Positions 3,715 through 51,165 are shown, counted from the first letter of the stretch. The stretch: DNA of 64,000 nt from Escherichia coli (GCF_003991155.1 NZ_CP031293.1), one strand, 5' to 3'. Translations and numbers: made by a program. The notes: generated from the letters alone by a model not told the origin.

Positions 3715-4665
3715 CTATATCTGATAATCAATTTCCTCTTCACTGTTTTCCATCACCTGGCGCTTGATATCCTCAACTGACAGTCCTGCATTACAAAGTT
3801 CCAGAAAGCGCCAGACATAGTTACGTTGAAGTTGCCCTCGCTTCAGTCCCAACCAGACAGTATTAGCATCGAAAAGATGCCTCGTATCCAGACGGATTAA
3901 ATTCTTTTCCTCTTGTTCACCACTGGATTGTTCGGCAACTAATCCGATCCCCAGCCCAAGAGCAACATAGGTTTTAATGACATCAGAATCCTGCGCACTT
4001 AATACAATATCTGCCAGCAAACCTTTGCGGGCAAATGCGTCATCAATACGTGAGCGCCCCGTAATCCCCTGTCGGTAAGTAATTAACGGCCACTTCGCTA
4101 TTGATTCCAGCGTCAACGGTGTAATTTGCGTCAAGGGATGATCGAGTGGAACAAGCAAACTATGGTGCCAACGAAACCACGGGAAGGCGACGAGCTGCGG
4201 GTCATTACTCAAACGCTCGCTGGCGATACCAATATCAGCTTCGCCATTTTGCAACAACGTCGCAATTTCCTGTGGTGTACCCTGGATTAGCTCCAGCCGA
4301 ACCTCCGGGAAAAGTTCGCGAAAAGCTTTAATGACCTCAGGCAAGCTATAACGTGCCTGAGTATGCGTCGTTGCAATAGTGAGAACGCCAGACGTATCGT
4401 TGGTAAACAGGTCTGCAAGCCGACGAACATTACTGGCTTCATTCAGAATACGTTCTGCAATGACCAGTAATGCTTTGCCCGGTTCAGTCATGCCCAGCAG
4501 TCGCTTACCTCGTCGAACAAATATTTCGATGCCAAGTTCATCCTCCAGTTCCCGAATATGACGGCTAACGCCTGACTGTGAGGTAAAAAGCATATTCGCA
4601 ACCTCTGTCAGGTTGTAATCCTGACGTGCAGCCTCGCGGATTATCTTTAGTTGTTGGAAATTCAC
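3715..4665 (-). CDS. cbl: LysR-family regulator Cbl (CysB-like)
   Basis: 316-aa ORF MNFQQLKIIREAARQDYNLTEVANMLFTSQSGVSRHIRELEDELGIEIFVRRGKR...; N-terminal HTH plus LysR substrate-binding region; sits next to nac as in E. coli. Confidence 0.85.
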   Translation of the reverse strand: MNFQQLKIIREAARQDYNLTEVANMLFTSQSGVSRHIRELEDELGIEIFVRRGKRLLGMTEPGKALLVIAERILNEASNVRRLADLFTNDTSGVLTIATTHTQARYSLPEVIKAFRELFPEVRLELIQGTPQEIATLLQNGEADIGIASERLSNDPQLVAFPWFRWHHSLLVPLDHPLTQITPLTLESIAKWPLITYRQGITGRSRIDDAFARKGLLADIVLSAQDSDVIKTYVALGLGIGLVAEQSSGEQEEKNLIRLDTRHLFDANTVWLGLKRGQLQRNYVWRFLELCNAGLSVEDIKRQVMENSEEEIDYQI

Positions 4666-4766
4666 GGTAAACTCCGGGCAGTTCAGATATCCCGTTATTG
4701 TTAAAGTCTAATGCCCGGCATAACAAATAATAAAAACCCGCATCTTATTCCATCCCGATATAACGC

Positions 4767-5684
4767 TTAGCTCACCAATTGCCACTGCCTTTTTTCCATC
4801 ACTGGAGAATTCATCACTGACATTAACAACTCTTTCACTGCTTGCGCCTGTGGTGATAAGTTCGCTCTGGCGGGTAAATTTAATGACAAAGAGAGACTCA
4901 TGGAAGGAGTGGTAATGCGTGACATCCAACCATTTACTGCGCCACATAACGAACGCGCGGCCGATTCGGGTAATACTGCAACGCCCATGCCGCTGGCAAT
5001 CGCTGCGGTAAGCGTGGCAATAGACTCAATTTCACCAATGACTTTTGCCGTGAGTCGCCGTAGGGAAAAAGCCTCATCAACACGAAGTCTAATAGCACTG
5101 TAATCACTTGGGAGAAAAAGGTTCATTTGCGCAATAGCATTAACATCAACGCTTTGCCCCGGGCAATCTTGAGTTCCTACCAGAAAAAGATCTTCTTTCA
5201 GTAAAGCCTGACTGGATACACCAGCCACAGGGGAATGCTCATAAATCACCGCCATATCGAGTTGGTGATTTATCAGTTTTTCGTTAAGTACTGCACCGCT
5301 ATTTTCATGAAGATAAATAACGACCTCCGGGAATTCAGCGCGAACCGCCTGTAATAAGGGCATGGTGATGGATGACGCAGCGGTTCCTGGCGCAAAGCCA
5401 ATCGAGACTTGCCCCGATAATGCCTGACCAACGTTATGCACCGCCAGTTGGGCCTGCTCACACTGACGTAAAATGGCCCGCGCATGGGTATAGAGAATTT
5501 TTCCGGCGTCAGTTGGCGTAACACCCCGTTTTGTGCGAATCAAAAGTTGTTGATTTAACTCACCTTCCAGTGTGGCAACCTGCTGACTGAGCGCTGGTTG
5601 TGCGATATGCAATACTTCAGCAGCCTGGGTCAGGCTACCAATATCTACAATTTTTACGAAGTATTTCAGGCGTCTGAAGTTCAT
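4767..5684 (-). CDS. nac: Nitrogen assimilation control protein Nac (LysR family)
   Basis: ORF 4767-5714; likely start at MNFRRLKYFVKIVDIGSLTQAAEVLHIAQPALSQQV... (5684); LysR HTH. Confidence 0.85.
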   Translation of the reverse strand: MNFRRLKYFVKIVDIGSLTQAAEVLHIAQPALSQQVATLEGELNQQLLIRTKRGVTPTDAGKILYTHARAILRQCEQAQLAVHNVGQALSGQVSIGFAPGTAASSITMPLLQAVRAEFPEVVIYLHENSGAVLNEKLINHQLDMAVIYEHSPVAGVSSQALLKEDLFLVGTQDCPGQSVDVNAIAQMNLFLPSDYSAIRLRVDEAFSLRRLTAKVIGEIESIATLTAAIASGMGVAVLPESAARSLCGAVNGWMSRITTPSMSLSLSLNLPARANLSPQAQAVKELLMSVMNSPVMEKRQWQLVS

Positions 5685-5961
5685 GTTGCCTCCGGTTTTT
5701 AAGAATCGGCCCAAGTGCCGCCATTACTTACAACCAGATTGCAAGATGCTTGCCAGTTTTATTTTGGCGTTGATGTACAAGCTAACCAACTGTCAAATAA
5801 GAGATTATGATAGTTTTGTCACTCGATCTTTTTATTAGAACTCGCGTTCTCTGCCCCAAGACATAAAGGTATGCACCACGATGGTTCATTACCAAAAAGA
5901 TTGAAAGCTCACCATTTTGTCGAAATTGGCAGCAAACAAACAAAAAAATGCATTTCACCCT

Positions 5962-5990
5962 TTGACATCACCATGCACTGCCATTAATAT
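5962..5990 (+). promoter_or_regulatory. Sigma70-like promoter for tRNA-Asn
   Basis: TTGACA (5962-5967), 17-bp spacer, TAATAT (5985-5990), about 18 bp upstream of the tRNA 5' end. Confidence 0.55.
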
Positions 5991-6008
5991 GCGCCCCGTT
6001 CACACGAT

Positions 6009-6084
6009 TCCTCTGTAGTTCAGTCGGTAGAACGGCGGACTGTTAATCCGTATGTCACTGGTTCGAGTCCAGTCAGAGGAGCCA
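6009..6084 (+). tRNA. tRNA-Asn (GTT anticodon)
   Basis: tcctctgtagttcagtcggtagaacggcggactgttaatccgtatgtcactggttcgagtccagtcagaggagcca; 76 nt, anticodon loop ctGTTaa. By recalled K-12 layout this is asnT-like by its downstream context and asnV-like by its upstream context. Confidence 0.95.
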
Positions 6085-6226
6085 AATTTTAGTCTTGAGA
6101 CATCTCTATAAGTCTCAGGATAGTTAAAAAACAAGAACTTATCTTTACCCGGTTGTCTCGCAAGAGGCTGCTGGGTTTCTTGACATCCATAGTTTTTAGG
6201 GGCCTAATCAGGGGCCTCACGGTTCG

Positions 6227-7513
6227 GTGAGCAAACGGAGCCCCCACGCTATGGCATTAACAGACACCGCTATTCGCAAGACTAAACCCTCTGACAAACC
6301 CTTCAAAATGACGGACAGTTCTGGACTGTACCTGTTGATCAAACCTAACGGCTCAAAACTCTGGTATATGAAGTACCGCATCGACGGCAAAGAGAAGAAA
6401 CTGGCCTTTGGCCCCTACCCGGAGATCTCCCTGTTGCAGGCTCGCCGCCTGCGCGAAACAGCACGCAATAACATTCATGCAGGCGTCGATCCGGCTGCGG
6501 TGAAGCAAACCGAGAAACAGAAGAGGAAAAACGGGCAGACGTTCAGCCAGATCGCCATCAACTGGCATAGCGAGCATAAACGCTGGTCTGAGCATTACGC
6601 GAAAACGGTTATGCGCAGGCTGGAAATGTACGTTTTCCCGGATATCGGGGATCGCCTTATCGAGGAGATCGAAACGGAGGATTTGTTATTCACGTTGCGC
6701 AAGGTAGAGAGTAAAGGCTTTCTGGAAATCACCGCGCGGCTGAAAAACTACGTCACCGATATCATGCACTACGCGATGAAAAAGAAACTGCTCAAAGCGA
6801 ACCCGGCGCTGTATCTGGACGGTGAGTTTGCCGCGCCAGAAACCAGTCACTACCCGGCCCTGTCGCTGGACAAATTGCCTGAGCTTTTAACCCGGACGGA
6901 TAGCTACTGCGGCAGGCTGCTGACAAAATACGCGCTTAAGCTGTCGCTGATTTTTTTTGTGCGCTCCAGCGAACTACGCTTTGCGCGCTGGAGTGAGATC
7001 GACTGGCAGCAGAAGTTATGGATAATCCCGGAAGAGCGCGAACAGATCGAAAACGTGCGCTTCTCTTACCGGGGGTCGAAAATGAAAATCCAGCACATTG
7101 TGCCGCTGTCGGATCAGGCGATTGCGATACTGAAACAGATCGAGGCCCTCTCCGGGCATCTGGCCTTTATTTTTCCCGGCGAATACGACCAGGACAAGTG
7201 CATGAGCGACAACACCGTCAACAAGGCGCTGCGCGTGATGGGTTACGACACCAAAAAGGATATCTGCGGGCATGGCTTCCGGGCAATGGCCTGTAGTGCG
7301 CTGAGCGAATCGGGATTATGGAGCAAAGAAGCCATTGAAAAGCAGATGAGCCACCAGGAAAGAAACAGCGTCCGTGCTGCCTATATTCACAAGGCTGAAT
7401 ATCTGGAGGAACGGATCGAGATGATGCAGTGGTGGTCAGATTATCTTGATGCAAACAGTGACGGGTATGTCTCGGCTTACCAGTATGCCCGCCGCCTAAA
7501 ACAGGCGTCGTAA
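6227..7513 (+). CDS. P4-type tyrosine integrase, island-associated
   Basis: 428-aa ORF directly 3' of tRNA-Asn. C-terminal ...HGFRAMACSALSESGLWSKEAIEKQMSHQERNSVRAAYIHKAEYLEERI... carries the catalytic H-x-x-R ... Y region. Possible alternative start at MALTDTAIRK (6251). Confidence 0.85.
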   Translation: MSKRSPHAMALTDTAIRKTKPSDKPFKMTDSSGLYLLIKPNGSKLWYMKYRIDGKEKKLAFGPYPEISLLQARRLRETARNNIHAGVDPAAVKQTEKQKRKNGQTFSQIAINWHSEHKRWSEHYAKTVMRRLEMYVFPDIGDRLIEEIETEDLLFTLRKVESKGFLEITARLKNYVTDIMHYAMKKKLLKANPALYLDGEFAAPETSHYPALSLDKLPELLTRTDSYCGRLLTKYALKLSLIFFVRSSELRFARWSEIDWQQKLWIIPEEREQIENVRFSYRGSKMKIQHIVPLSDQAIAILKQIEALSGHLAFIFPGEYDQDKCMSDNTVNKALRVMGYDTKKDICGHGFRAMACSALSESGLWSKEAIEKQMSHQERNSVRAAYIHKAEYLEERIEMMQWWSDYLDANSDGYVSAYQYARRLKQAS

Positions 7514-7636
7514 GTTAACAAAGCATCAGAGGGGGAAAAGGTATATTCCCCCTTTGTGCGTTTCAAATGTCGATGCTGACTGTAGCTTTTAAACTAAATT
7601 ACTGGATAAAAAGTAGCTTTTAAGCTACTATCTTTT

Positions 7637-7954
7637 ATGAAAACGATAAAGACCTACATAACTGCCGACGGGCGAGATCTGTATGCAGAGTTTTTTAAAG
7701 GGTTACGCGACCCCATCGCGAAGGCAAAGATCGCTTCCCGGATCAACCGGATGGCTTCGGACAATTTTGGCGACCATAAGCCCTGCCGGGAAGGTGTCTG
7801 GGAACTCAGGATAGATCAAGGGGCTGGGTATCGGGTTTATTACAGCCTGGTGGATGGAGAAGTCGTCCTGTTGATTCTGGCTGGCGACAAGCGTACGCAG
7901 GATGCAGATATAGATGAGGCTATTCGCTGCCTCAAAGACTATTTGAAGAGGTGA
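7637..7954 (+). CDS. Type II toxin, RelE/ParE superfamily (addiction module killer protein)
   Basis: 105-aa ORF MKTIKTYITADGRDLYAEFFKGLRDPIAKAKIASRINRMASDNFGDHKPCREGVWELRIDQGAGYRVYYSLVDGEVVLLILAGDKRTQ...; upstream of and 3 nt from an HTH antitoxin gene. Confidence 0.7.
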   Translation: MKTIKTYITADGRDLYAEFFKGLRDPIAKAKIASRINRMASDNFGDHKPCREGVWELRIDQGAGYRVYYSLVDGEVVLLILAGDKRTQDADIDEAIRCLKDYLKR

Positions 7955-7957
7955 TGT

Positions 7958-8266
7958 ATGGCGAAAGAACGTTTATATGATGATGTCATGGTGGAAGCGC
8001 TCCGGGAAGATCCTGCTTTTGCTCAGGCCTATCTGCATCAGGCATTTCTGGATATGGATGAAGATGGCGGTCAGGAAGCTTTTTTACTCGCGTTACGCCA
8101 TGTTGTTGAAGCGCGGGGAGGAATGGCGACGGTTGCCCAGAAAGCCGGTGTATCGCGTGAATCACTGTACCGCACGCTCTCCCCGACCGGCAACCCGACA
8201 CTGAAAACACTCCGCAGCGTCGTCCACGCCGCAGGTTTTCAGTTCTCTGCGCTGGCAAGTGCCTGA
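7958..8266 (+). CDS. HTH-type antitoxin (addiction module antidote protein)
   Basis: 102-aa ORF with C-terminal HTH (ATVAQKAGVSRESLYRTLSPTGNPTLKTLRSVVHAAG); adjacent to the toxin gene. Confidence 0.7.
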   Translation: MAKERLYDDVMVEALREDPAFAQAYLHQAFLDMDEDGGQEAFLLALRHVVEARGGMATVAQKAGVSRESLYRTLSPTGNPTLKTLRSVVHAAGFQFSALASA

Positions 8267-8388
8267 GTAGTTTTACATTTTGCAGCGATAATATAAATTG
8301 TAAATCATAATCCCTCCGTTGCTCTGTTCTGAGCAACGGATTACTTTGCATATTATCTGCTTTGCTAATCCATCAATTTTTAATTACC

Positions 8389-8682
8389 TTACATGGAAGC
8401 AACATACTCCATTAAATTATCTAATAAAAAATCAACCTTACTTATACCTTCATTTACATTATCGGCATAGATAAGTTCTACGAGCTTCATCCAACTTAAA
8501 TTGGAACGTACATTGTATTGTAAAAGGAGCCACTCTCTAAATCCCTCTAACATTTTACCGTCAAAGGAAAAATCCATCCCTAGTATAAAAGCCACAGTGT
8601 TTTCATAGTTATTTTCAAGTAGATACATATCGATATGCTTCTTAAAAAAAACAATTTTTTTTAGGAGGATATTTTTATTCAT
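8389..8682 (-). CDS. Putative immunity protein for the orphan Rhs C-terminal toxin
   Basis: 97-aa AT-rich ORF immediately 3' of the orphan Rhs toxin fragment (2-nt gap). Confidence 0.5.
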   Translation of the reverse strand: MNKNILLKKIVFFKKHIDMYLLENNYENTVAFILGMDFSFDGKMLEGFREWLLLQYNVRSNLSWMKLVELIYADNVNEGISKVDFLLDNLMEYVASM

Positions 8683-8684
8683 AA

Positions 8685-9299
8685 TTAAAATCCAAAATTG
8701 ATTGCATCAGGATATTGCCATAACTCTTTATATTCTTGTAATGGTAAACCGTCTGAGCCAGTAAAGGCATCATAAACCCGACCATCTTTTACTACAACGT
8801 CGTGATATGCCCAACCGGGATTCGTGCCTCTGTATTTACCTAATGAAGGAGCTCCGAAATCAGGTCTAATTCTTGCAATATCACCACCGATTTTCTTTTG
8901 TACCCACAATGCAAAATCTTCACAACCATTCCAGTTCTCAGAATTTTTAATATCCGCAGCCTTCCATACACAATCAGCGTTAAGGCCTAATGGATCAATC
9001 CAATTTAACGGATCTTTGACGTAACTGTATGGATTAATACCTCCCAACACCCCGGTTGGATCTGCCGAAATATACTGCGCAGTATCAGGATCATAGTACC
9101 GGAACCGGTTATAGTACAGTCCTGATTCGGCATCTTCATACTGCCCCGGAAAACGCAGGCGGCAGTCAGGTGCATCATCCCTGTTCCTGCCTTCTTCCCG
9201 GCCCCAGAGCTGTTGTTTTCCCCGCCAGACAATGGTGCCGCCCTCGGTCAGCAGTTCCTGGACACGGCCGACCGTATCCGTCACCGCGTAATGCAACAA
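8685..9299 (-). CDS. Orphan Rhs C-terminal fragment with a distinct toxin tip
   Basis: 204 aa: conserved end of the Rhs core (GRVQELLTE...RLRFPGQYED.ESGLYYNRFRYYDPDTAQYISADPTGVLGGINPYSYVKDPLNWIDPLGL) followed by a divergent ~95-aa C-terminus. About 300 bp (9000-9300) nearly identical to 10140-10440 in the main Rhs gene. Confidence 0.8.
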   Translation of the reverse strand: MLHYAVTDTVGRVQELLTEGGTIVWRGKQQLWGREEGRNRDDAPDCRLRFPGQYEDAESGLYYNRFRYYDPDTAQYISADPTGVLGGINPYSYVKDPLNWIDPLGLNADCVWKAADIKNSENWNGCEDFALWVQKKIGGDIARIRPDFGAPSLGKYRGTNPGWAYHDVVVKDGRVYDAFTGSDGLPLQEYKELWQYPDAINFGF

Positions 9300-9442
9300 G
9301 CCTTTCTCATAACGCGCCAGCGGTGTAAAACTTCCCGGTTCGTATATCCAGCGGATGGCGTTTTCATCATCTGGCTTGCCGTCCTGGCTGACCGGAATTT
9401 CTTGGTTAGATGACCGTCAGTTAAATGGATATTATCATTCCA

Positions 9443-9784
9443 TTAAAAATCGGAATGATCCATATATTCTATATGCTCATCAGAAAGTCCATCTGGATAT
9501 AACTCTCTTGGATAATCACTATCTAAAATTGCTAGGAAGTTATTTATAGTATTTTCCAATGCCTCATCTACTGTTTTTCCCCAGCCAATAGCACCTTCGG
9601 GACAATCATCAAATTTCCGTTTAATCATTACATTTGTAATCCCCATGTAACTCCCATCCTGAGACTCTCGTATTTTTATTTTTACTTTTGCGCTAGGGAT
9701 AACACCAAACATCCAAATTACAAACTCGGCTTCAACTTTCTCTACTTTAGATACACTGCGTATTTTCATTTGATGCCAGCCCAT
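9443..9784 (-). CDS. Putative immunity protein for the main Rhs toxin
   Basis: Small ORF 10 nt 3' of the Rhs stop; likely start at MGWHQMKIRS (9784). No motif-based support. Confidence 0.5.
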   Translation of the reverse strand: MGWHQMKIRSVSKVEKVEAEFVIWMFGVIPSAKVKIKIRESQDGSYMGITNVMIKRKFDDCPEGAIGWGKTVDEALENTINNFLAILDSDYPRELYPDGLSDEHIEYMDHSDF

Positions 9785-9794
9785 ATCTTTTCCT

Positions 9795-12700
9795 CTATAA
9801 ACGACCAAAAGAGACAATTTCCCCTGTATCTACCGCAACATCAATATATCTTCCGTTCTTTCTATATCTCCACACATTTTCAGTATAACCAGAAACTTTG
9901 GTTGGTTTTATTCTTCTCAAGTTCTCAGAAAAAACCTTAGCTTTATTTAGATATTGCTCTACCGTTTCTGCACCAACTTCACGACCATGTTTTCTGAAGT
10001 GCTCCAGTAATGACTCTGCCGGAGTATCCCAACTTCCTTTACTCCATAGTTTTTTACAATTTACTTCTTGCAGGAATGCAAATAATGCCGATAAACCTAA
10101 AGGGTCAATATAACTAAATGGGTTCTGTACATATGAATATGGATTTAATCCCCCAAGTAACCCAATGGGATCTGCCGAAATATACTGCGCCGTATCAGGA
10201 TCATAGTACCTGAACCGGTTATAGTACAGTCCTGATTCCGTATCTTCGTACTGCCCCGGAAAACGCAGGCGGCAGTCAGGCGCATCATCCTTGTTTCTGC
10301 CTTCTTCCCGGCCCCAAAGTTGCTGTTTTCCCCGCCAGACAATCGTGCCGTCTTCGGTCAGCAACTCCTGGACACGACCGACCGTATCCGTCACCGCGTA
10401 ATGCAGCAAGCCTTTCTCATAACGTGCCAGCGGTGTAAAACTTCCCGGTTCATATATCCAGCGAATGGCATTTTCATATTCTGGTTTGCCATCAGTACCA
10501 ACAGGAATTTCTTCGGTTAACTGATCGCCATTCCAGTGGAAATCCATTCCGGACTTATCACGGTTGGTACACCGTTTGCTGATGCGCCTGCCAAACGGGT
10601 CGTATTTATACTCCCAGCGTTCCCCCTCCGGCGTTTCAAGCCCGGTAAGCTGACTTCTGGCATCCCAGCGATAGCGCCATTCGAGCGGACGATAGCCGCC
10701 TTTATCGACCAGTTTCTCCACCAGGCGACCATTAGCATCGTACGTCCAGGTAATATTGTGCTCATTCACCACCCGGACAAATTTTCCCTCTTCCGGCTTT
10801 CCTGTGTCCGGGTTGATGCGGTGTGTCTGATGCCGCCAGCCTTTGTGCTCTCTGGAAACAACTCTTCCATGCCGCAACTGCTGGTGTGTCTCGCTTTCCA
10901 GCACCTCATTTACCCATGTCTGGCGGCGGGCAATATTCAGGTTTTTGTCATAAGTGAACAGTTCCTCACACAGCGGAAACTCCCGGGAATCGCCCGTCCA
11001 GGTGGCATGGCTTACCTGGTCGTTAACCGTCATATTGTTGAAGGCTGATCCCCGCAGCGAGTCTGATATTACCGTCAGGTTGTACGCCTTGTCATACAGC
11101 CACTGGCGCTCCAGGCTTTTGTTCCGTTCGTACGGCCCGGCCTGGTGGTCCCCGGCATTCTGCTTCGCTGGCATCCCTGTGCGCGTGTATGCCAGCGTCT
11201 GGTAAAACCCGGCCTCGCTCCGCCTGGACGTTTCCAGGCCGCGCAGGTCGTGCTCAAATGTCAGCGGGGCATGGTCCGCTATCTGCCAGGATGCCAGATG
11301 CCCCATCAGGTTTCGGGTAAAGCGTTCTGTGATACCTGCTGTGGTGCGCTGTGTGACCGTATCCAGGTCAGGGTCGTAACGGTATTCTGTGCGCCTGCCG
11401 TTCAGCGTTTCGGCAACAATCTGGTTTGCATCGTTATATTCAAATGTAACGGTGGCATCGTCATTCTTCGCTTCCACCAGACGACGCTGCGTGTCGTAAC
11501 GAAATGTGGTGACACTCAGAGTTCGGTCACTGTTGCCCTGTGTGACTTCCTCGTCCGTCACCTGGTCATTCACGTTGTAGCGGCGGTTAAGGTGAGTGCC
11601 GTCCGGGAAGCTGGTGCGAATACAACGCCCGACGGCATCGTAGGTGTAGTTCAGCGTGCGTCCGGTGAAGTCTGTTTCTGCTACAAGCTGCCCGGCTTTA
11701 TCATATTTAAGACGGTAGCGCTCGCCTTCGGCGTTGGTAATTTCGGTCAGGCGGGTCAGTTTATCGTAGCGACACGCCAGCCGCTCGCCGTCAGGACGCA
11801 CCAGAGCCGTGAGCAGATCGAATGCACCGTATTCGTAACGGGTGGTTTTGCCCTCGCCATCGGTAAAGCTTTCCGGTAGCTTTTCGCTGTTCTGGCGCAT
11901 CAGTTCCCGCACGCCGTCCGGGCGCTGGATTTCTTCCACGCAGCCCTGTGGCCCGGCGTGGATTTTGCTGTGACGAAACTGCGTGGTGAAGCCAAGTGGG
12001 TCTTTCACACTTAACAGTCGGCCCAGCATATCCTGTTCGGTCTGCGTGATGCCGCCGTCTGGCGCAACAGTCTCGCGCACCTGATGCAGGGCGTCATGAC
12101 TCCAGCACCAGGTGGCCCCGCCCGGCAGAATCCGTGCAAGCAAATCACCCTGTTCACTGTAGCTGAACTGCTGTTTCCGGCCCTGAGGGTCGATCAGGCT
12201 GATTATGCTGCCCCGATCATCATAGACCCATTGCCACGCCTGATTATCAGTTGTCGACAGCCGGGTTAACTGACCGGTATCATTATACTCGTAGAACAGG
12301 CCATAGCCGCCCGGCAGGGCAACCTGGATAACCTCACCTTCCCGGTTATAGCGGTACGCCGTGGTACGCCCCAGCGCATCGGTGCGTGACTGAAGCCGGG
12401 CATTATTCCAGACGGTAATTTCTTCCCGCCCCAGCGGATCGATACAGCGGGTGACCAGGCCGTCCTCGTTATACCAGTAACGGGTTTCGCCCCCTTCTGC
12501 ATCCAGGTAGGTGGTGCATTTTTCATCATCGTTATAGATAAAGCGGTCATCGAAGTAGCCTTCCGTTGACAGTGTGCTGACAGCGCGCCCCTGCGGATCA
12601 TAGCGGATATCCACACAGGTTTTGTCCGTATCCCGCCAGCGGGTCATAAAGCCTTCTGATGTGTACTCATGCCATAAATGCGAGAACTGGAAGGTATCGC

Positions 12701-13992: not shown

Positions 13993-15244
<1,252 letters not shown>

Positions 15245-41763: not shown

Positions 41764-43013
<1,250 letters not shown>

Positions 43014-43016
43014 CCA

Positions 43017-44826: not shown

Positions 44827-45099
44827 ATGCACATGTTTAATCCACCCCATCCGGGTGACGTCCTTCGCGATTATCTGGACGGCGTGAGCATCACGCAGGC
44901 CGCTTCCCGGCTTCAGGTATCGCGCTCGCGGTTATCCCGTATCCTCAATGGACATGCACCAGTGACGGCTGATATGGCGCTACGTCTGGCGGCGCTGCTG
45001 AATACCCGCGCTGAACTGTGGACGGGGATGCAGTCTGAGTATGGCCTCTGGCAGGCGTCACAAAAACCACGACCCGTTATCCGGTCATTGCGGGGTTAA
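44827..45099 (+). CDS. HigA/VapI-like HTH (XRE-family) protein
   Basis: MHMFNPPHPGDVLRDYLDGVSITQAASRLQVSRSRLSRILNGHAPVTADMALRLAALL...; no partner toxin ORF found. Confidence 0.65.
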   Translation: MHMFNPPHPGDVLRDYLDGVSITQAASRLQVSRSRLSRILNGHAPVTADMALRLAALLNTRAELWTGMQSEYGLWQASQKPRPVIRSLRG

Positions 45100-45864
45100 C
45101 TCAGCATTTTACATTCACAAATACACGATAAAATCAGGGGGAAAACCAATATCCAGAAAAATGAGTTTCCCCTTTCTGCGCCAGAAATAACGGTGTAATC
45201 TCCCTCCTGCATTGTCGCCTTCGGGCACCCTTTGGCTTCATGGTCTGCAAGAAGCCCCTGATTTATCAGGATGACCAGCCCTTACTACCGGTACGACCTC
45301 CGCAATACCGGAACGCGAAAGCGTTTGAGGCTAAGAGTACATACACCCGAACGGCTTCATCGTCATTGCTTAACGGCAACAGTCTTCACCGGCTGAACGG
45401 CTTTTCTTTGCCGGAATTTCCCGACTGCCCCATACCCAGCTGAAAACAGCGCCCTTTACATGACGGGCTGCGGCCTGCATTGCCGTCAGGCTTTGCTGCC
45501 GCGTGACCGTCATTCTGCACCAGAAACGCAACGTTTACCCCCTGCACCAGATGAGGCGTCACTTTGGTCGCGCCAGCGAAAAAGCAAAGTGACGCCGTAC
45601 AACATACCGCCGCAAGCCGCGCCAGTTCTGGCCTGCGTCCTGTTTCCGCCGTCTGACATGCCCTTTGGGGCGCTGTCAGTCCAGAGTAAAGGAGAAAAAG
45701 ATCGATACCGAGGGGGGCACGACGCCCCGGAGATACCCCTGCTTCGTCAGGCAGTCTGTACCGCGTACAGCCTGAAACTCCCTAAACCTCAACAATCAGC
45801 CACTCCGGCGTGAAGGTATCGTTCTGGCGCAGCCAAAAAGCACACGCCGGAGACTGTTTGTTTT

Positions 45865-46767
45865 TTGTTGCAGGGGGTAGTTATGAGCAAATTAAGCAGT
45901 GAAATGAAGGCGCTGGCGAAAAAAGCAGGCGGTAGTTTCAGAACGGTGGACTACCGTATCCATGCCACGAAGCGGTTCAGTCAGCATTTACGCGAACTGA
46001 ATATTCAGATCCAGCGGGTGGAGCAGATCAAAGTTCGCCATATCGAATGCTATATTCAGGAGCGGCTGGAGCAGGATATTGGCCTGCGCACGCTGCAAAA
46101 CGAAATGGCGGCGCTGCGGGCCGTGCTGAGGCTGGCGGGACGCCGGCAGGTGGTGGAGCATCCGCGCCTGACCAATAAGGCGCTGGGGCTGTCAGGTGCT
46201 TCGCGCAACGGCACGCGTCGCGCCATCACGCCGGAACATTATGAAAAAGTGATGGAGAACGCCCGCGCACAGGATGCGGGGCTGGCGGCAGCGGTGGAGA
46301 TCGCGCGACTGATGGGATTACGCTCGCAGGAGGCGGTACAGAGTTCACAGTCGCTGAAAACGTGGCTGAAAGCCATTTCCCGCGGCGAAACCCGGCTGAA
46401 AGTGGTGTTTGGCACCAAAGGCGGGCGTCCGCGTTACACGACGCTCCTGGACGCTGGCGCAGTCAGGAAGGCGGTGGAAAACGCATTACCGATCGCCAGA
46501 CAGCGCAATGGCAGGCTGATCGACAAGCCAGACCTTAAAACGGCGCTGGAGAGCTGGCACAAACAGGCCATTAAGGCGGGGCTGAAAGGGGAATTTTCCC
46601 CGCACTCGCTGCGTTATGCGTGGGCGCAGGACGCGATCCGCCATTATCTGGCGCAGGGATTCAGCGAAAAGGAATCGCTGGCGCTGACGGCGACGGATCT
46701 GGGTCATGGCGACGGTCGCGGCCGCTGGGTGAAACAGGTGTACGGCTACCGCTGGAAGGAGGAATAA
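45865..46767 (+). CDS. Integrase-like protein (putative tyrosine recombinase domain)
   Basis: 300-aa ORF; C-terminal ...FSPHSLRYAWAQDAIRHYLAQG...VYGYRW has an R/H/Y arrangement suggestive of a recombinase catalytic region. Start may be MSKLSSEM (45883). Confidence 0.45.
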   Translation: MLQGVVMSKLSSEMKALAKKAGGSFRTVDYRIHATKRFSQHLRELNIQIQRVEQIKVRHIECYIQERLEQDIGLRTLQNEMAALRAVLRLAGRRQVVEHPRLTNKALGLSGASRNGTRRAITPEHYEKVMENARAQDAGLAAAVEIARLMGLRSQEAVQSSQSLKTWLKAISRGETRLKVVFGTKGGRPRYTTLLDAGAVRKAVENALPIARQRNGRLIDKPDLKTALESWHKQAIKAGLKGEFSPHSLRYAWAQDAIRHYLAQGFSEKESLALTATDLGHGDGRGRWVKQVYGYRWKEE

Positions 46768-46841
46768 CGGCTTTCATGAATGGCGCAAAATAGTACGTTA
46801 CTGCGTAACGACAGCGATTTATCGTACCCTCTGTACCGGAT

Positions 46842-47520
46842 CTGGCGCAGGGGGCGAGCGGGTTTGTATTGTGAAAATATCGTTACAGCATGACGAATAA
46901 ATATCAATAGCTCAGATTTTCCTGCTGAACCAATGTAGCTCGCCGGAATATTATAGTGATTACCCGGTAATCACTCGAAACGATCCCGATTAATAGCTGG
47001 TGTTTCAATCGTTTTACCGATATTACAGGTACAGGGTCGGGAAATTTTAAAATGTAAACTCACCGAGGCATCACATTAATTCTGGCGCAGGATTATATCT
47101 GAATAATTCTCTCTGTGTTTTCCTGCATCCTGTGACATATATTGCATGGTCACAGAATGTCTCATGATTTTATAAAAAATGCTGCGACGGTTTTTGACAT
47201 CATAACCTGCTGCATATAGATTAATAATTTTCGGTGCTTCATGTTATTTTTTTGCGCTCTGTGATCGTTATCTGGTGGTGAAAATACAATCTGGTGCAGA
47301 CTGTCATGGTGCATTTCTGAATAAACTGGTTGCGCCAGAAAGGGAAAGGGCCATAAAGGTTAAGGGGCGATAAGGGTAACAGCGCCTGACCGGAAAGGGC
47401 CGAAAACCAAAGAGCCAGAAACTGGCGCAGTCCTGAATGTGTGAAGTGGCGAGACGCTGGCGCAGATAACCGATCTTCCGGGGCTGGTGCAGATTATTTC
47501 GTCTCTGTATATCTGGTGCA
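46842..47520. repeat. Iteron-like direct repeats CTGG(C/T)GCAG (at least 7 copies) in a 1.2-kb non-coding region
   Basis: Copies near 46842, 47082, 47291, 47422, 47455, 47483, 47512; short palindromes at 46964-46982 (gtgattacccggtaatcac) and 47129-47155. Confidence 0.6.
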
Positions 47521-47625
47521 GTTATAATATGTATCAGGGAAGGCTGTCCGGTATTTTATGACGCCTCTTTTAGAGTATATTAATTGGTATTTCCGTGAAA
47601 ATATCGCTTATTGATAGTTTTTCAT

Positions 47626-47655
47626 CTTCCGTGATTAACGCGTTAATCACGGAAG
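47626..47655. promoter_or_regulatory. Perfect 30-bp palindrome (operator-like) upstream of the integrase
   Basis: cttccgtgattaacgcgttaatcacggaag; followed by a second inverted repeat acctatcaa(N11)ttgataggt at 47662-47690. Confidence 0.55.
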
Positions 47656-47841
47656 ACTGTTACCTATCAAAAAAAGATATATTGATAGGTAACGGTCAAA
47701 TTTTATTTGGGGCCAAATAATTGTAGATACTTTCCGATTGGTAATAAAAAAGAACAACGGCAATACCTCTCAATACAAAAAAGCAGATCCCGGCCAATCA
47801 GGATCTGCTTTTCCATTTTAATGATTTCAGCTATTTATGAC

Positions 47842-49104
47842 TCAGGCTGCCTTATGCTGCCGCGCATAAATATACGGCGCGACATACCCCTCGCGGCACA
47901 CATCCAGATAATCCGACCACCACTGCATCATGGCCTTTCTGGCCTCCAGATGCTCCGCTTTATGCACATAGGCCGCCCGCACGCTGTTACGCTCCTAGTG
48001 GCTCATTTGCCGTTCCACCGTATCGCGTGACCAGAGATCCGACTCTACCAGGGCGCTACAGGCCATTGCGCGAAGTCCATGTCCGCACACATCGGTTTTC
48101 GTATCATACCCCATCAGGCGCAGCGCCCGGTTGGTTGTGTTTTCGCTCATTGGCTTGTACGGGTTATGGTCGCCGGGGAATACCAGATCCAGATGGCCGG
48201 AAAGCTCCTGTATCTGTTTCAGAATGGCAATCGCCTGGCGGGAGAGTGGCACGATATGCGGACTACGCATTTTTGCGCCACGCCCCGAAAACCGTACTTT
48301 GTCGATGGCCTCGCGGGTGGCGGGGATGGTCCAGATTTTGTGCCTGAAATCAATCTCGCTCCAGCGGGCGAAACGCAGTTCGCTGGAACGGATGAACAGG
48401 TGCAGTGTCAGCACCACCGCCAGCCGGGTTAACTCCCGGCCCTGCCGGTAATCGCCAATACGATCGAGCAATTCAGGCAACCGCTCCAGCGGTAAAGCGG
48501 GATAGTGATTCTTGACGGGAGAGGCGACTACACCATCCAGATGCTGCGCCGGGTTGCTTTCGGTCAGTCCCTGCTGAACGGCATAGCGCATGATGTTGCT
48601 GAGTTGCTGCCGGGTTCGGGACGCGACTTCCAGAAAGCCCTTATCCTCAATAACCCGCAGCAAAGCCGTGAAATCCTGCGTTTTAAGCGCAGCAACGGGC
48701 AGATGACCAATCGCCGGGAAGATATGGTTTTCCATACTGGCGAGAATACGGGCGGCATAATCAGCCGACCATTTTTTGTTGGTTTTGTGCCAGGCCAGCG
48801 CCACCGCCTTAAAGCACTTTTCAGGGGAGCAGGCGGATTTCTCTGCCATACGCTGTTGCGCCGGGTTGATATTCTGCGCCAGTAGCTTGCGGATACCGTC
48901 GCGCTGTTGCCTGGCTTCTGCCAATGAGACAAGCGGATATGCGCCAAGACTGACTCTGGATTCTTTTCCGTTGAAACGATATTTGAGATACCAGATGCGT
49001 GAACCACCCGGATTGACGAGCAGATACAGACCCTGAGAGTCGGAGAGTTTTACCGGACGGGAAGAAGACTTTAACTTGCGGATTTTAGAATCGTTTAAAG
49101 ACAT
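47842..49104 (-). pseudogene. P4-type integrase with an in-frame amber codon before the catalytic tyrosine
   Basis: ORF 47995-49206 ends ...VERQMSH at TAG (47995-47997); the same frame continues ERNSVRAAYVHKAEHLEARKAMMQWWSDYLD... to 47842. The integrase at 6227-7513 has CAG (Q) at the equivalent codon. Adjacent to tRNA-Asn. Confidence 0.8.
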
Positions 49105-49265
49105 TTGGGGGTCACTCCAGAATCGAACCAAACTGACCCCAGATCTGACCACCAAATTATCCCGATGCGGAGAGAAAATTAGATACGCACCGGGAAGGAT
49201 TTTCACGCTAACTTACTGAATCGTAAACAAATAGAGACGCATAGATAAGCATGAAAACTTGAATT

Positions 49266-49341
49266 TGGCTCCTCTGACTGGACTCGAACCAGTGACATAC
49301 GGATTAACAGTCCGCCGTTCTACCGACTGAACTACAGAGGA
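49266..49341 (-). tRNA. asnW: tRNA-Asn (GTT)
   Basis: Reverse complement is identical to the tRNA-Asn at 6009-6084; lies between the integrase and yeeO. Gene symbol from recalled K-12 synteny. Confidence 0.9.
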
Positions 49342-49385: not shown

Positions 49386-49441
49386 CAAAGCCTGTTTTTT
49401 AAATTTGAAATCGTTTGCTGAAATAATCTGCACTTTGTCGT

Positions 49442-50929
49442 TTATTCCGACACAACTGGCTTTTTTTCACACTTTTGCGGCTCAGGTCGAGGATATTTCC
49501 ACAGCCAACGTCCAGTAACCATTCGCCAGTAAAACAGCACGGCCCGCACAGCCCAGTCGGCAAACATTCCCATCCAGACACCAACTACACCCCAGCCAAG
49601 CATGATTCCCAGCACATAACCGACTACAACCCGGCAACCCCACATGCTCAACATAGAAACCCACATGGCGTAACGTGCATCGCGAGCACCCTTAAATCCA
49701 GCGGGTAGCACCCATGAGGCAGACCAAATAGGCATAAATAAAGCATTTAGCCAAATCAGAATCACAACGACATGTTTAACCTGTGGATCCTGGGTGTAAA
49801 ACGATGCCATAACCCCGGCAAAGGGAGCCGTTAGCCAGGCGATGGCCGTTAATCCAAGAGTGGACAGCCAGAACACATGCCGCAACTGAATCTCTGCTTG
49901 CGCTATCTGCCCTACCCCCAACCTTCGGCCTGTAATGATCGTAGAAGCAGAGCCGAGCGCACTTCCGGGTAAGTTGATAAGAGCCGCAATTGAAAACGCG
50001 ATAAAATTTCCGGCAATAACACTGGTCCCCATCCCGGCAACGAACATTTGGGTTAATAACCGACCACTGGTAAATAACACTGATTCGACACTCGCTGGAA
50101 TACCAATCCCCATGACTTCCCAGATAATGCTAAAATTCAGCGGGTTAAAATAGCTCTTTAACGAAATTCTTAGCGCAGGATTAAAACCAATCGCCAGCAC
50201 CCACAAAATTGCAACTGCGCCAATATAACGAGAAATGGTTAAACCCAACCCAGCCCCGACAAATCCCAGTCCCGGCCAGGAGAAAAGGCCGTAAATCAAT
50301 ATGCCGCTAATAATAATATTAAGAATATTCAGGCTACCGTTAATCAGTAGCGGTATTTTCGTATTCCCTGCACCACGAAGTGCCCCGCTACCAATCAAAG
50401 TGATGGCAGCTGCTGGATAACTGAGTACCGTCAGCTCCAGATAAGTCAACGCCAGTGCTTTAACTTCTGTCGTGGCATCACCCGCGACGAAATCAATAAT
50501 TTGTTCGCCAAAATGATGAATAAGCGTTGCCAACAGTACGGCAAACAACGTCATGATCACCAATGACTGCCGCGTCGCCACCCTCGCTCGTCGTCGATCC
50601 CGCTTACCGAGACAAAATGCCACAACGACAGTAGTACCAAGATCGATAGCAGCAAAAAAAGCCATAATGACCATATTGAAGCTGTCCGCCAATCCCACGC
50701 CGGCCATCGCATCTTTTCCCAGCCAGCTGACCAGAAAAGTGCTCAGGACCCCCATCAACAGGACACAGGCATTCTCCATGAAGATAGGAACAGCAAGCGG
50801 GGTTATCTCGCGCCAGAACAACACTTTGTAGCTCTTGCGTTTAGCGTGCCAGCGAGTGCCGTGAACAACCTGGCGTAAAGCAGAGGAGATATTCAAAGCC
50901 GACCTTAATTGCAGAAAGTGAAACCACAT
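49442..50929 (-). CDS. yeeO: MATE-family efflux transporter
   Basis: ORF 49442-51088; probable start at MWFHFLQLRSALNISSALRQ (50929); multiple transmembrane segments. Confidence 0.8.
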   Translation of the reverse strand: MWFHFLQLRSALNISSALRQVVHGTRWHAKRKSYKVLFWREITPLAVPIFMENACVLLMGVLSTFLVSWLGKDAMAGVGLADSFNMVIMAFFAAIDLGTTVVVAFCLGKRDRRRARVATRQSLVIMTLFAVLLATLIHHFGEQIIDFVAGDATTEVKALALTYLELTVLSYPAAAITLIGSGALRGAGNTKIPLLINGSLNILNIIISGILIYGLFSWPGLGFVGAGLGLTISRYIGAVAILWVLAIGFNPALRISLKSYFNPLNFSIIWEVMGIGIPASVESVLFTSGRLLTQMFVAGMGTSVIAGNFIAFSIAALINLPGSALGSASTIITGRRLGVGQIAQAEIQLRHVFWLSTLGLTAIAWLTAPFAGVMASFYTQDPQVKHVVVILIWLNALFMPIWSASWVLPAGFKGARDARYAMWVSMLSMWGCRVVVGYVLGIMLGWGVVGVWMGMFADWAVRAVLFYWRMVTGRWLWKYPRPEPQKCEKKPVVSE

Positions 50930-51045
50930 TTCAAATAATGAGGGAGAATCAGCAAAGCTGCAAAGATTTTCGCCAACAAATTGTCTGCAAATGCAACAAA
51001 CTGTTGATAGAAACGGCAAACGGTTGGGAAATTTAAAAATCGGGT

Positions 51046-51073
51046 TTGACAAAAGATTTTTCGCCGTTAAGAT
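51046..51073 (+). promoter_or_regulatory. Sigma70-like promoter for tRNA-Asn
   Basis: TTGACA (51046-51051), about 16-bp spacer, TAAGAT. Confidence 0.5.
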
Positions 51074-51089
51074 GTGCCTCAACAGCAAT

Positions 51090-51165
51090 TCCTCTGTAGT
51101 TCAGTCGGTAGAACGGCGGACTGTTAATCCGTATGTCACTGGTTCGAGTCCAGTCAGAGGAGCCA
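51090..51165 (+). tRNA. tRNA-Asn (GTT)
   Basis: Identical 76-nt sequence; upstream context yeeO (asnU-like), downstream context ldtA (asnV-like) by recalled K-12 order. Confidence 0.95.

What the first reader, a model, noticed from the sequence alone, without database searches (positions are those of the whole stretch)
3715..51165. The tRNA-Asn cluster appears rearranged relative to the K-12 order
From recalled K-12 order (asnT-yeeJ...yeeN-asnW-yeeO-asnU-cbl-nac-asnV-ldtA), cbl-nac should lie between the yeeO-proximal tRNA and ldtA. Here the tRNA at 51090 is followed directly by its terminator and ldtA, while cbl-nac sits upstream of the tRNA at 6009, which leads into an island and then yeeJ. 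One explanation is excision of a cbl-nac circle by recombination between identical tRNA-Asn copies and re-insertion at another copy. The identical 76-nt tRNA genes act as portable homology.
Basis: partly seen in the sequence, partly recalled or inferred. Interest (0 to 1): 0.45.

Follow-up and report, generated by a model that had tools for sequence, protein, structure and literature searches.

The report
Gene-block swap at tRNA-Asn cluster
In one E. coli lineage (ST457), two neighbouring chromosome blocks bounded by identical tRNA-Asn genes have changed places, moving the regulators cbl and nac, fused to a secretion-system island, next to another tRNA copy; this is real, but it is an ordinary repeat-mediated rearrangement at a known hotspot.

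Summary
K-12 has mtfA-asnT-yeeJ..yeeN-asnW-yeeO-asnU-cbl-nac-asnV-ldtA. The window has cbl-nac-tRNA-island-yeeJ..yeeN-island-asnW-yeeO-tRNA-ldtA. Every breakpoint lies in a tRNA-Asn gene. The tRNA at 51090 has the asnU 5' flank and the asnV 3' flank. The tRNA at 6009 has the asnV 5' flank. The asnU 3' flank (cbl side) now follows a 15-nt partial tRNA that ends a large island.

In near-identical genomes that island is about 45 kb, carries a T6SS and Rhs genes, and starts at mtfA-asnT, upstream of the window. The three directly oriented copies have therefore exchanged flanks cyclically, and four tRNA copies are kept.

About 30 of 5,426 complete E. coli genomes share this order, all from one lineage that includes an ST457 strain. 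5,354 keep the K-12 block. It is neither an assembly artefact nor the common order.

However, the unit joined to cbl-nac includes the island. The available homology is a tRNA-integrase module identical for at least 862 nt, not only 76 nt. Which of the two blocks moved cannot be told.

RecA recombination is favoured, and integrase-mediated transposition of a composite island is not excluded. Deletions and inversions between these tRNA copies recur in other lineages. Interest is low to moderate.

The parts
1..3661 (.). Right-hand end of island 1, the T6SS/Rhs island whose start lies upstream of the window. It holds a frameshifted ISAs1-family transposase (about 176-1441), a low-GC hypothetical gene (1784-3448) and the conserved island right arm (about 3574-3661).
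   Evidence: GC is 31-36%. The annotation comes from genomes identical over this stretch. In P19_598 the island runs from mtfA-asnT through int, relE', IS3, the T6SS core, vgrG, DUF2169, PAAR/Rhs and ISAs1. The right arm is 93-95% identical to the right arms of the other two islands.
3662..3676 (+). Partial tRNA-Asn 3' end (CCAGTCAGAGGAGCC). This is the attR direct repeat of island 1. It is followed at 3677-3714 by the asnU 3' flank, which includes the terminator hairpin shared with cbl.
   Evidence: The pattern search gave 6 hits against 0.07 expected. The flank matches the K-12 asnU 3' flank. The same arm-DR-cbl junction occurs in O121 RM8352, which has the K-12 order and an island at asnU.
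3715..4665 (-). cbl, intact at 316 aa.
   Evidence: NCBIfam equivalog NF009324, 685.7 bits, residues 1-316 of 316. The segment is 96.7% identical to K-12, like the neighbouring core genes.
4767..5684 (-). nac, intact at 305 aa. Its upstream region (5685-6008) is the asnV 5' flank.
   Evidence: NCBIfam equivalog NF008410, 599 bits. The 45 nt upstream of the tRNA are identical to the K-12 asnV 5' flank.
6009..6084 (+). tRNA-Asn with the asnV 5' flank. It serves as attL of island 2.
6085..16914 (.). Island 2, an Rhs effector island. It holds P4-type integrase int2 (6251-7513, +), RelE/ParE toxin (7637-7954) with its antidote (7958-8266), Rhs C-terminal fragments, an Rhs core protein (9795-13883, -), IS3a (13995-15252), a hypothetical gene (15494-16426), a PAAR gene (16454-16717) and the right arm (about 16830-16914).
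   Evidence: ORFs are and annotation. NCBIfam integrase profile positions 8-401 of 413 are covered. The same island, 100% identical, sits at mtfA-asnT in CS6L and TL20.
16915..16929 (+). Partial tRNA-Asn 3' end with one mismatch. This is attR of island 2, and the asnT 3' flank and yeeJ follow it.
17244..30781 (+). Core block in K-12 order and orientation: yeeJ-type adhesin (17244-25223), intact yeeL-type glycosyltransferase (25484-26536, -), shiA (26851-28167), amn (28269-29723) and yeeN (30065-30781).
   Evidence: 96.3-96.7% identical to K-12.
31232..31246 (-). Partial tRNA-Asn 3' end. This is attR of the asnW island, adjacent to the asnW 3' flank on the yeeN side.
31247..49265 (.). asnW island. 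It holds a radical-SAM protein, DUF6375, an Avs2-like STAND protein (31497-36891), Rhs fragments (39346-41812, -), IS3b (41764-43021), a DUF2169 fragment, an HTH repressor, HigA, an integrase-domain protein (45883-46767) and a type-B P4-like integrase that is truncated (47842-49104, -).
   Evidence: Annotation is and the PADLOC Avs2 match (E 7.5e-116). The integrase is annotated as a pseudogene with an internal stop, and only profile positions 8-363 of 413 are covered.
49266..49341 (-). asnW, with both flanks as in K-12 apart from the inserted island.
49442..51088 (-). yeeO. RefSeq annotates 49442-50929; the longer K-12-style ORF runs to 51088.
51090..51165 (+). Hybrid tRNA-Asn with the asnU 5' flank (yeeO side) and the asnV 3' flank. 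The terminator hairpin is at 51166-51205 and ldtA follows at 51221-52156 (-). No island or direct repeat is present here.

Best explanation
The window comes from the E. coli lineage that includes ST457 (phylogroup F).

**What is there.** Three P4-type-integrase islands of one family occupy tRNA-Asn genes. The two adjacent blocks bounded by the three directly oriented copies (asnT, asnU, asnV) have swapped order. All crossovers lie in or at the tRNA genes.

**Most likely precursor (inferred).** This is the K-12 order carrying the Rhs island ('island 2') at asnT and the T6SS/Rhs island ('island 1') at asnU:
mtfA-asnT-[int2..]-yeeJ..yeeN-[island]-asnW-yeeO-asnU-[int1..T6SS..]-DR-cbl-nac-asnV-ldtA.

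**Most likely events (inferred).** Two reciprocal homologous (RecA-type) exchanges occurred. One block was looped out as a circle and re-inserted at the third copy. One exchange used the 76-100-nt tRNA identity, either asnU x asnV or circle x asnV. The other used the long tRNA-integrase repeat, which is identical for at least 862 nt.

**Product.** mtfA-tRNA-[int1..T6SS..]-DR-cbl-nac-tRNA-[int2..]-yeeJ..yeeO-tRNA-ldtA. Which block was the circle cannot be determined from the product.

**Consequence.** cbl and nac moved with their own promoter and terminator flanks and remain intact, so the change is probably neutral and serves as a lineage marker.

**Shown:** the anatomy, the flank permutation, the rarity, the lineage restriction, and each half of the proposed precursor existing separately in other genomes.
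**Inferred:** the precursor as a whole, the order of events and the enzyme.
For: 1. **Flank permutation with breakpoints inside identical tRNAs.** The tRNA at 51090 has the asnU 5' and asnV 3' flanks. The tRNA at 6009 has the asnV 5' flank followed by the island. DR 3662 joins an island right arm to the asnU 3' flank. DR 16915 joins a right arm to the asnT 3' flank. In P19_598, asnT has the asnT 5' flank followed by the island left arm.
2. **Translocation, not loss.** Lineage genomes keep four tRNA-Asn places and a single cbl copy.
3. **Native genes.** cbl-nac is 96.7% identical to K-12, like the neighbouring core genes, so it was not imported.
4. **Rare and lineage-restricted.** 30 of 5,426 genomes have this order and 5,354 have the K-12 block. 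AR13438, a member of the lineage, is ST457.
5. **Both halves of the precursor exist elsewhere.** Island 2, 100% identical, sits at mtfA-asnT with an identical left flank and K-12-order cbl-nac in CS6L and TL20. The same right-arm-DR-cbl junction occurs with an Rhs island at asnU in K-12-order genomes such as O121 RM8352.
6. **Long homology is present.** The asnT and nac-side tRNA-int-relE modules are identical for nt 1-862. Thirty differences cluster at 863-1185. Other lineage members carry other mosaics, which indicates ongoing recombination between copies.
7. **RecA-type exchange between these tRNAs recurs without any island at the sites.** The asnU x asnV deletion occurs in 5 genomes. The asnW x asnU inversion of yeeO occurs in 32 genomes at seven identity levels. 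An inversion of the region is published for pks+ B2 strains (PMC8209727).
8. **No recombination directionality factor was recognised in island 2.** The asnW integrase is truncated.
Against: - No genome with the complete proposed precursor (T6SS island at asnU in K-12 order) exists in the collection. The T6SS island occurs only in already rearranged genomes.
- CS6L and TL20 could be deletion derivatives rather than ancestral states. Recombination between the two tRNA-int repeats would produce them. Their right-hand regions are divergent imports, and polarity could not be resolved.
- The swap is seen only where intact integrases of this family flank the blocks, and never island-free (0 of 5,426 for each junction). 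That fits an integrase role equally well.
- The nac-side integrase is not chimeric relative to CS6L. The crossover position is therefore uninformative.
Confidence: 0.55

Rival explanations
1. Integrase-mediated transposition of a composite island. Island 1 sat at asnU and island 2 at asnV, so cbl-nac was trapped between two islands of the same att/int family. Canonical excision between attL(asnU) and attR(island 2) released a circle of about 60 kb holding island 1, cbl-nac, a tRNA and island 2. The circle integrated site-specifically into an empty asnT and left yeeO-tRNA-ldtA behind.
For: - The present structure is exactly an attL (mtfA-asnT-int1) ... attR (DR 16915-yeeJ) composite, with an empty reconstituted attB between yeeO and ldtA.
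- Both flanking integrases are full-length.
- All three islands share one right arm.
- The family uses asnT, asnU, asnV and asnW in other genomes, including a relE-antidote island at asnV in A30.
- The swap is found only in the presence of these islands.
- This route needs only two canonical reactions.
Against: - Island 2, 100% identical, is found at asnT in K-12-order genomes with an identical left flank (CS6L, TL20). That is more simply read as its original site.
- No genome shows island 2 at asnV, or the composite at another tRNA.
- No excisionase was recognised in island 2.
- The int mosaicism and the island-free deletions and inversions show that RecA-type exchange is active at these repeats.
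Confidence: 0.2
2. A bare 2.4-kb cbl-nac circle was excised by asnU x asnV tRNA recombination and re-inserted at asnT, ahead of island 2. The T6SS island then integrated site-specifically into the new mtfA-tRNA-cbl site.
For: - asnU x asnV excision of cbl-nac is seen independently in 5 genomes.
- The final structure is compatible with this route. The attR of island 1 next to the asnU 3' flank would then be formed by integration after the move.
Against: - The required intermediate, mtfA-tRNA-cbl without an island, is absent from 5,426 genomes.
- Both exchanges would have to rely on 76-100 nt of homology.
- A third event, island acquisition at exactly the new copy, would also be needed.
- Islands of this family joined to cbl through the same arm-DR junction already exist at asnU in K-12-order genomes.
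Confidence: 0.18
3. The arrangement is an assembly artefact across repeated tRNA and integrase sequences, or it is simply the common or ancestral order of the species and K-12 is the odd one out.
For: Repeats of 76 nt to 1.8 kb could mislead short-read assemblers.
Against: - The same junctions occur in 29-30 independent complete genomes from different laboratories and hosts.
- The K-12 block is contiguous in 5,354 of 5,426 genomes across phylogroups, including the phylogroup F strain IAI39.
Confidence: 0.01

Closest known systems
Inversion of the asnW-asnU-asnV region (yeeO, cbl, nac/'gltC') in pks-positive B2 E. coli (Auvray et al., Microb Genom 2021, PMC8209727)
   Same: It involves the same locus and the same identical asn tRNA copies as breakpoints. 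It is associated with a P4-type-integrase island inserted at an asn tRNA, and it is lineage-specific.
   Different: That event is an inversion between oppositely oriented copies. Here the event is a transposition, an order swap between three directly oriented copies. It needs two exchanges and leaves all orientations unchanged.
asn-tRNA genomic islands with P4-like integrases (HPI at asnT, pks at asnW/U/V; HPI of Yersinia pseudotuberculosis inserting in any asn tRNA)
   Same: The integrase lies next to an intact tRNA-Asn. A 15-16-nt direct repeat of the tRNA 3' end marks the far end. Any of the identical asn copies can be used.
   Different: The cargo here is T6SS, Rhs and defence genes. The integrases and arms are of other types. 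The notable point is not insertion but that a core segment now sits between two such islands.
Non-allelic homologous recombination between dispersed repeats (rrn operons, IS elements, tRNA genes) causing deletions, inversions and translocations in enterobacterial chromosomes (general knowledge, e.g. rrn-mediated rearrangements in Salmonella Typhi)
   Same: Breakpoints fall exactly in identical repeats, flanks are exchanged reciprocally and there are no target-site duplications. Sister events at the same repeats include deletion in 5 genomes and inversion in 32.
   Different: The repeats are very short (76-100 nt) unless the adjoining integrase genes are counted. The translocation is local, a shift of about 45 kb on the same replichore.
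Tandem accretion and composite excision of integrative elements (CIME/ICE-type composites; general knowledge)
   Same: Two elements of the same att/int family lie in direct orientation with attL, an internal attR and attL, and an outer attR. This geometry would allow excision of the whole array.
   Different: The internal junction holds 2.4 kb of core genes and a complete tRNA, not a simple hybrid att site. No circular form or second location of the composite has been observed.

Membership tests
K-12-type organisation of the tRNA-Asn cluster | yeeO-asnU-cbl-nac-asnV-ldtA contiguous | tested here: not met
   In the window yeeO-tRNA-ldtA is direct and cbl-nac lies 45 kb to the left. The K-12 block is present in 5,354 of 5,426 genomes. 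The 80% coverage rule tolerates loss of one end of that query.
tRNA-associated P4-type integrase genomic island | Tyrosine integrase gene immediately 3' of an intact tRNA gene | tested here: met
   int2 lies at 6251-7513, after the tRNA at 6009. A truncated integrase at 47842-49104 lies next to asnW. int1 follows asnT in P19_598.
tRNA-associated P4-type integrase genomic island | Direct repeat of the tRNA 3' end at the distal boundary, followed by the native 3' flank of a tRNA | tested here: met
   The repeats are at 3662, 16915 and 31246(-). This is 6 hits against 0.07 expected. Each is followed by the K-12 asnU, asnT or asnW 3' flank respectively.
tRNA-associated P4-type integrase genomic island | Variable presence at the site among conspecific genomes | tested here: met
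   The sites are empty in K-12, IAI39 and A30 at the corresponding tRNAs. Related islands occur at asnT, asnU and asnV elsewhere.
Repeat-mediated (non-allelic homologous) rearrangement | Every novel junction lies within a repeat, with reciprocal exchange of the unique flanks and conserved repeat number | tested here: met
   The three pairings are T5'/U3', V5'/T3' and U5'/V3'. Lineage genomes keep four tRNA-Asn places.
Repeat-mediated (non-allelic homologous) rearrangement | RecA dependence of the exchanges | not testable with these tools
   Support is indirect only: island-free deletions and inversions at the same tRNAs and mosaic integrase alleles.
Integrase-mobilised composite (tandem) island | Outer attL and attR of one att family in direct orientation with an intact integrase | tested here: met
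   The composite runs from mtfA-asnT-int1 to the right arm and DR 16915. int1 and int2 are full-length.
Integrase-mobilised composite (tandem) island | Recombination directionality factor (excisionase) available | tested here: inconclusive
   None was recognised in island 2 or annotated in island 1. Only an HTH repressor-like gene is present in the asnW island.
Integrase-mobilised composite (tandem) island | The same composite found at another attB, or as a circular form | tested here: not met
   The T6SS island occurs only in the rearranged context. No genome has island 2 at asnV. Circular forms cannot be assayed here.

The most novel reading that the evidence does not exclude
Two islands of one integrase family, sitting at neighbouring identical tRNA-Asn genes, trapped the core regulators cbl and nac between them. 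The pair then excised and re-integrated as a single composite element of about 60 kb at a third tRNA-Asn copy. This would be site-specific transposition of core genes by genomic-island integrases, and it would make cbl-nac part of a potentially mobilisable element in ST457.
Probability: 0.2. Interest if true: 0.45.

Novelty: new member of a known kind. Interest (0 to 1): 0.25.

Why it matters
- **Structural marker.** The swap is a clean marker for the ST457 lineage, an emerging multidrug-resistant ExPEC clone.
- **Synteny and assembly.** It warns that synteny-based annotation or scaffolding across the asn-tRNA hotspot can fail.
- **How the hotspot behaves.** Four identical tRNA genes loaded with related integrase islands act as a local recombination system. 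Together they yield deletions (5 genomes), inversions (32 genomes) and, here, a transposition that places core regulators inside an island array.
- **No obvious functional change.** cbl and nac are intact and kept their own control regions, so no functional change is evident.
- **Limits.** It does not open a long-standing question. It would be more interesting only if the integrase, rather than RecA, moved the core genes.

Tried and rejected
1. **Inversions as the explanation.** I tested whether inversions between asnT(+) and asnW(-), or between IS3 copies, could produce the order. They cannot, because all genes keep their K-12 orientation. The DUF2169-HTH-HigA module next to asnW is better read as native to that island, since it is only 79% identical to its AMSHJX01 counterpart.
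2. **Import of cbl-nac from another species together with the T6SS island.** Rejected. cbl-nac is 96.7% identical to K-12, like the flanking core genes.
3. **Search for intermediates.**
   - The T6SS island in another context: none, with the next best match only 78% identical.
   - Island-free mtfA-tRNA-cbl and nac-tRNA-yeeJ junctions: 0 of 5,426 each.
4. **Polarising CS6L and TL20 (ancestral or derived).** I compared their right-hand flanks with IAI39 and O121. All are about 97% identical, so this was uninformative.
5. **A G/T difference upstream of asnT as a crossover marker.** It is a common polymorphism, and K-12 is the exception.
6. **Chimerism of the integrase copies as a crossover marker.** The copies are mosaic, but the nac-side copy equals the CS6L copy, so nothing can be inferred.
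7. **Literature.** Searches for this translocation or for an ST457 T6SS island found nothing specific.

Full report
**1.

ARAGORN finds three tRNA-Asn(GTT) genes, at 6009-6084 (+), 49266-49341 (-) and 51090-51165 (+).

In the window, cbl (3715-4665) and nac (4767-5684) are intact, full-length equivalog matches. They sit immediately upstream of the tRNA at 6009. An integrase island follows that tRNA, and then yeeJ. The tRNA at 51090 lies directly between yeeO and ldtA.

**2. Breakpoint anatomy, read directly from the sequence**

All tRNA-Asn copies in the window and in K-12 are identical over 76 nt. Comparing flanks gives the following:

| Feature | 5' side | 3' side |
|---|---|---|
| tRNA 51090 | asnU 5' flank (yeeO start) | asnV 3' flank (terminator hairpin, ldtA) |
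| tRNA 6009 | asnV 5' flank (nac promoter side, 45/45 nt identical) | island left arm |
| Partial tRNA 3662-3676 | island right arm | asnU 3' flank and cbl |
| Partial tRNA 16915-16929 | island right arm | asnT 3' flank and yeeJ |
| Partial tRNA 31232-31246 (-) | island right arm | asnW 3' flank and yeeN |

The three extra partial 3' ends of the tRNA (CCAGTCAGAGGAGCC) are part of 6 hits against 0.07 expected by chance. The roughly 110-bp right arms of the three islands are 93-95% identical to one another.

The window therefore holds the end of one island (1-3676), a complete Rhs island (6085-16929) and a complete island at asnW (31232-49265). All are bounded in the classic attL/attR manner.

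**3. What lies upstream of the window**

Five complete genomes are 100% identical to window 1-8000. A further set is 100% identical to 8001-33000.

In P19_598 the sequence to the left reads serU-mtfA-asnT-int-relE'-IS3, followed by a complete T6SS cluster, vgrG-DUF2169-PAAR/Rhs, further Rhs/immunity modules, ISAs1 copies and finally the window start. The fourth tRNA-Asn is therefore mtfA-asnT. It is the attL of a roughly 45-kb T6SS/Rhs island whose attR is the repeat at 3662 next to cbl.

The flanks of the three directly oriented copies are cyclically permuted:
- asnT 5' flank now pairs with the asnU 3' flank, with island 1 between them.
- asnV 5' flank now pairs with the asnT 3' flank, with island 2 between them.
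- asnU 5' flank now pairs with the asnV 3' flank, with nothing between them.

Lineage genomes keep four tRNA-Asn places and one cbl copy. cbl-nac is as diverged from K-12 (96.7%) as the surrounding core genes. This is a conservative transposition of native genes. It is not a loss, a duplication or an import.

**4. How common it is**

Counts are out of 5,426 complete E. coli genomes.

| Arrangement | Genomes |
|---|---|
| K-12 block contiguous | 5,354 |
| Window's left junctions | 30 |
| nac-tRNA-int junction | 35 (29 of this lineage, 6 unrelated with an island at asnV in K-12 order, e.g. A30) |
| yeeO-tRNA-ldtA junction | 34 (29 of this lineage, 5 unrelated) |

- The 80% coverage rule behind the first count tolerates loss of one end of the query. 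It therefore also counts, for example, the published B2 inversion.
- The 5 unrelated yeeO-tRNA-ldtA genomes have only three tRNA places. They are plain cbl-nac deletions. This was checked by annotation and flanks only in Esc20; the other four are inferred from the junction and the tRNA place count, and one of them (SL112) retains part of cbl.
- AR13438, one of the lineage genomes, is ST457 (PMC10100771).
- The nearest non-lineage relatives on the right flank are the phylogroup F strains IAI39 and CE10. IAI39 has the K-12 order.

Thirty independent complete assemblies exclude misassembly.

**5. Evidence on the precursor**

- The island family uses every asn copy in K-12-order genomes: asnT in AMSHJX01, asnU in O121 RM8352 with the same right-arm-DR-cbl junction, asnV in A30, and asnW in the window.
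- CS6L and TL20 carry island 2 at mtfA-asnT. CS6L is 100% identical to the window over the integrase module and 99.98% identical across 5985-31246 (2 mismatches). TL20 is 99.8% identical across 5985-20449, with only 3 mismatches up to about 20000, beyond which it diverges.
- Both have an identical left flank, K-12-order cbl-nac of a different allele, and no T6SS island.
- The simplest reading is that island 2 was already at asnT before the swap, and that island 1 sat at asnU.
- CS6L and TL20 could instead be deletion derivatives. Their right-hand parts are divergent, and the region adjoins the his/O-antigen recombination hotspot. I could not polarise them.
- The T6SS island occurs only in 28 rearranged genomes. 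The next best match is 78% identical and is the aspV T6SS-1. No true intermediate is available.
- Island-free versions of the new junctions do not exist in the collection (0 of 5,426 each).

**6. Mechanism**

Swapping two adjacent blocks bounded by three direct repeats needs two reciprocal exchanges. One block is looped out and then re-inserted at the third repeat. A duplication followed by deletions would give the same result. The product does not reveal which block was the circle. It could have been island 1 with cbl-nac (about 48 kb) or island 2 with yeeJ..yeeO (about 45 kb).

Homology is not limited to the tRNA. The asnT-side and nac-side tRNA-int-relE modules are identical for nt 1-862 from the tRNA start. 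They differ at 30 clustered positions (863-1185) and at two others. The 980-2 sub-lineage shows different mosaics. This indicates repeated homologous exchange or gene conversion among the copies.

Exchange between the bare tRNAs also happens in nature:
- The asnU x asnV deletion occurs in 5 genomes.
- The asnW x asnU inversion of yeeO occurs in 32 genomes at seven identity levels. The hybrid flanks were verified in TL20.
- An inversion of this region is published for pks+ B2 strains (PMC8209727).

I therefore favour RecA-type recombination, with confidence about 0.55.

The main rival is integrase-mediated transposition of a composite element, with confidence about 0.2. In that model island 1 was at asnU and island 2 at asnV. 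Excision between attL(asnU) and attR(island 2) was followed by integration into an empty asnT. This uses only canonical reactions and yields exactly the observed structure. Its weaknesses are these:
- Island 2 is found at asnT in K-12-order relatives.
- No excisionase was recognised in island 2.
- The composite has not been seen elsewhere.

It remains possible (about 0.18) but needs an unobserved intermediate and a third event.

**7. Comparison with what is known, and verdict**

The asn-tRNA cluster is a recognised island hotspot (HPI, pks), and an inversion there is already documented. Repeat-mediated deletions, inversions and translocations are textbook events.

This specific order swap, its restriction to the ST457 lineage, and the placing of core regulators inside an island array were not found in the literature I could search. 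It is a new instance of a known kind of event.

No functional consequence is evident. Interest is low to moderate (0.25). It would rise only if the integrase route were demonstrated.

Noticed in passing
L013 (TL20) 20090-21989; 32 genomes: yeeO is inverted between asnW and asnU, which are oppositely oriented tRNA-Asn copies. The hybrid flanks were verified in TL20. The junction is found in 32 of 5,426 genomes at seven different identity levels, which suggests several independent events.
   Followed up: partly
L005 (Esc20) 20490-20565; hits H85-H89: Five genomes outside the lineage have yeeO-tRNA-ldtA with only three tRNA-Asn copies. These are plain deletions of cbl-nac by asnU x asnV recombination. 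The two regulators are therefore dispensable in nature.
   Followed up: partly
window 13995-15252 (IS3a) and 41764-43021 (IS3b); L002: The two IS3 copies are 99.9% identical and directly oriented. In 7 of the 30 lineage genomes (e.g. 2016C-3878) the 27.8 kb between them is deleted. That removes yeeJ, shiA, amn, yeeN and the Avs2 module. The spacing from the nac-side tRNA to the yeeO-side tRNA is 17.3 kb instead of 45.1 kb.
   Followed up: partly
window 31497-36891: The asnW island carries a likely anti-phage module. It consists of a radical-SAM protein with a partial viperin-like match, a DUF6375 protein and a 1,352-aa Avs2-like STAND protein (PADLOC E 7.5e-116).
   Followed up: partly
window 6085-6154 versus K-12 L001 17959-18027: The first 70 nt or so of the type-A island left arm resemble the native K-12 sequence just 3' of asnW (93% over 170 nt including the tRNA). 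Either K-12 retains an island remnant there, or the island attP derives from an asnW flank.
   Followed up: no
window 47703-49345 and 6085-7513; L006 (O121) 10509-12151: Two integrase/left-arm types share one right arm. Type A comprises int1, int2, AMSHJX01 and A30. Type B comprises the window's asnW island and the O121 asnU island, which are 94.5% identical to each other. The window's type-B integrase is truncated at its C-terminal end.
   Followed up: partly
L003 (P19_598) 8034-49901, upstream of the window: A complete T6SS cluster with vgrG-DUF2169-PAAR/Rhs lies on an asn-tRNA island. It is found only in this lineage (28 genomes). It is only 78% identical to the common aspV T6SS-1 of E. coli, so it was probably acquired from outside the species.
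   Followed up: partly
window 5985-31246 versus L007/L008 (CS6L) and L013 (TL20): CS6L and TL20 are 99.8-99.98% identical to the lineage from the serU island through island 2, with only 2-3 mismatches in the shared tract. They then switch abruptly to about 97% identity, exactly at asnW in CS6L and inside yeeJ near 20000 in TL20. These look like endpoints of large recombination tracts near the his/O-antigen region.
   Followed up: partly
window 54728-64000: A hypothetical gene, a cobalamin riboswitch (annotated in identical genomes), pocR, pduF and the pdu operon follow cobU. K-12, IAI39 and CS6L have a CP4-44-type island or remnants at this position instead.
   Followed up: no
window 17244-25223 and 25484-26536: The yeeJ-type adhesin is longer than in K-12 (about 2,660 aa) and has an internal tandem repeat (20276-20962 versus 20885-21571, 88.5% identical). 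The yeeL-type glycosyltransferase, a pseudogene in K-12, is intact here.
   Followed up: no
L012 (980-2) 9609-23449: A sub-lineage (980-2 and UID2309220003) shares the swap. In 980-2, the member examined, the T6SS core is missing and a different left end is present (int-hyp-PAAR' resembling AMSHJX01, joined through IS3). This shows further IS3-mediated and recombinational remodelling of island 1.
   Followed up: partly
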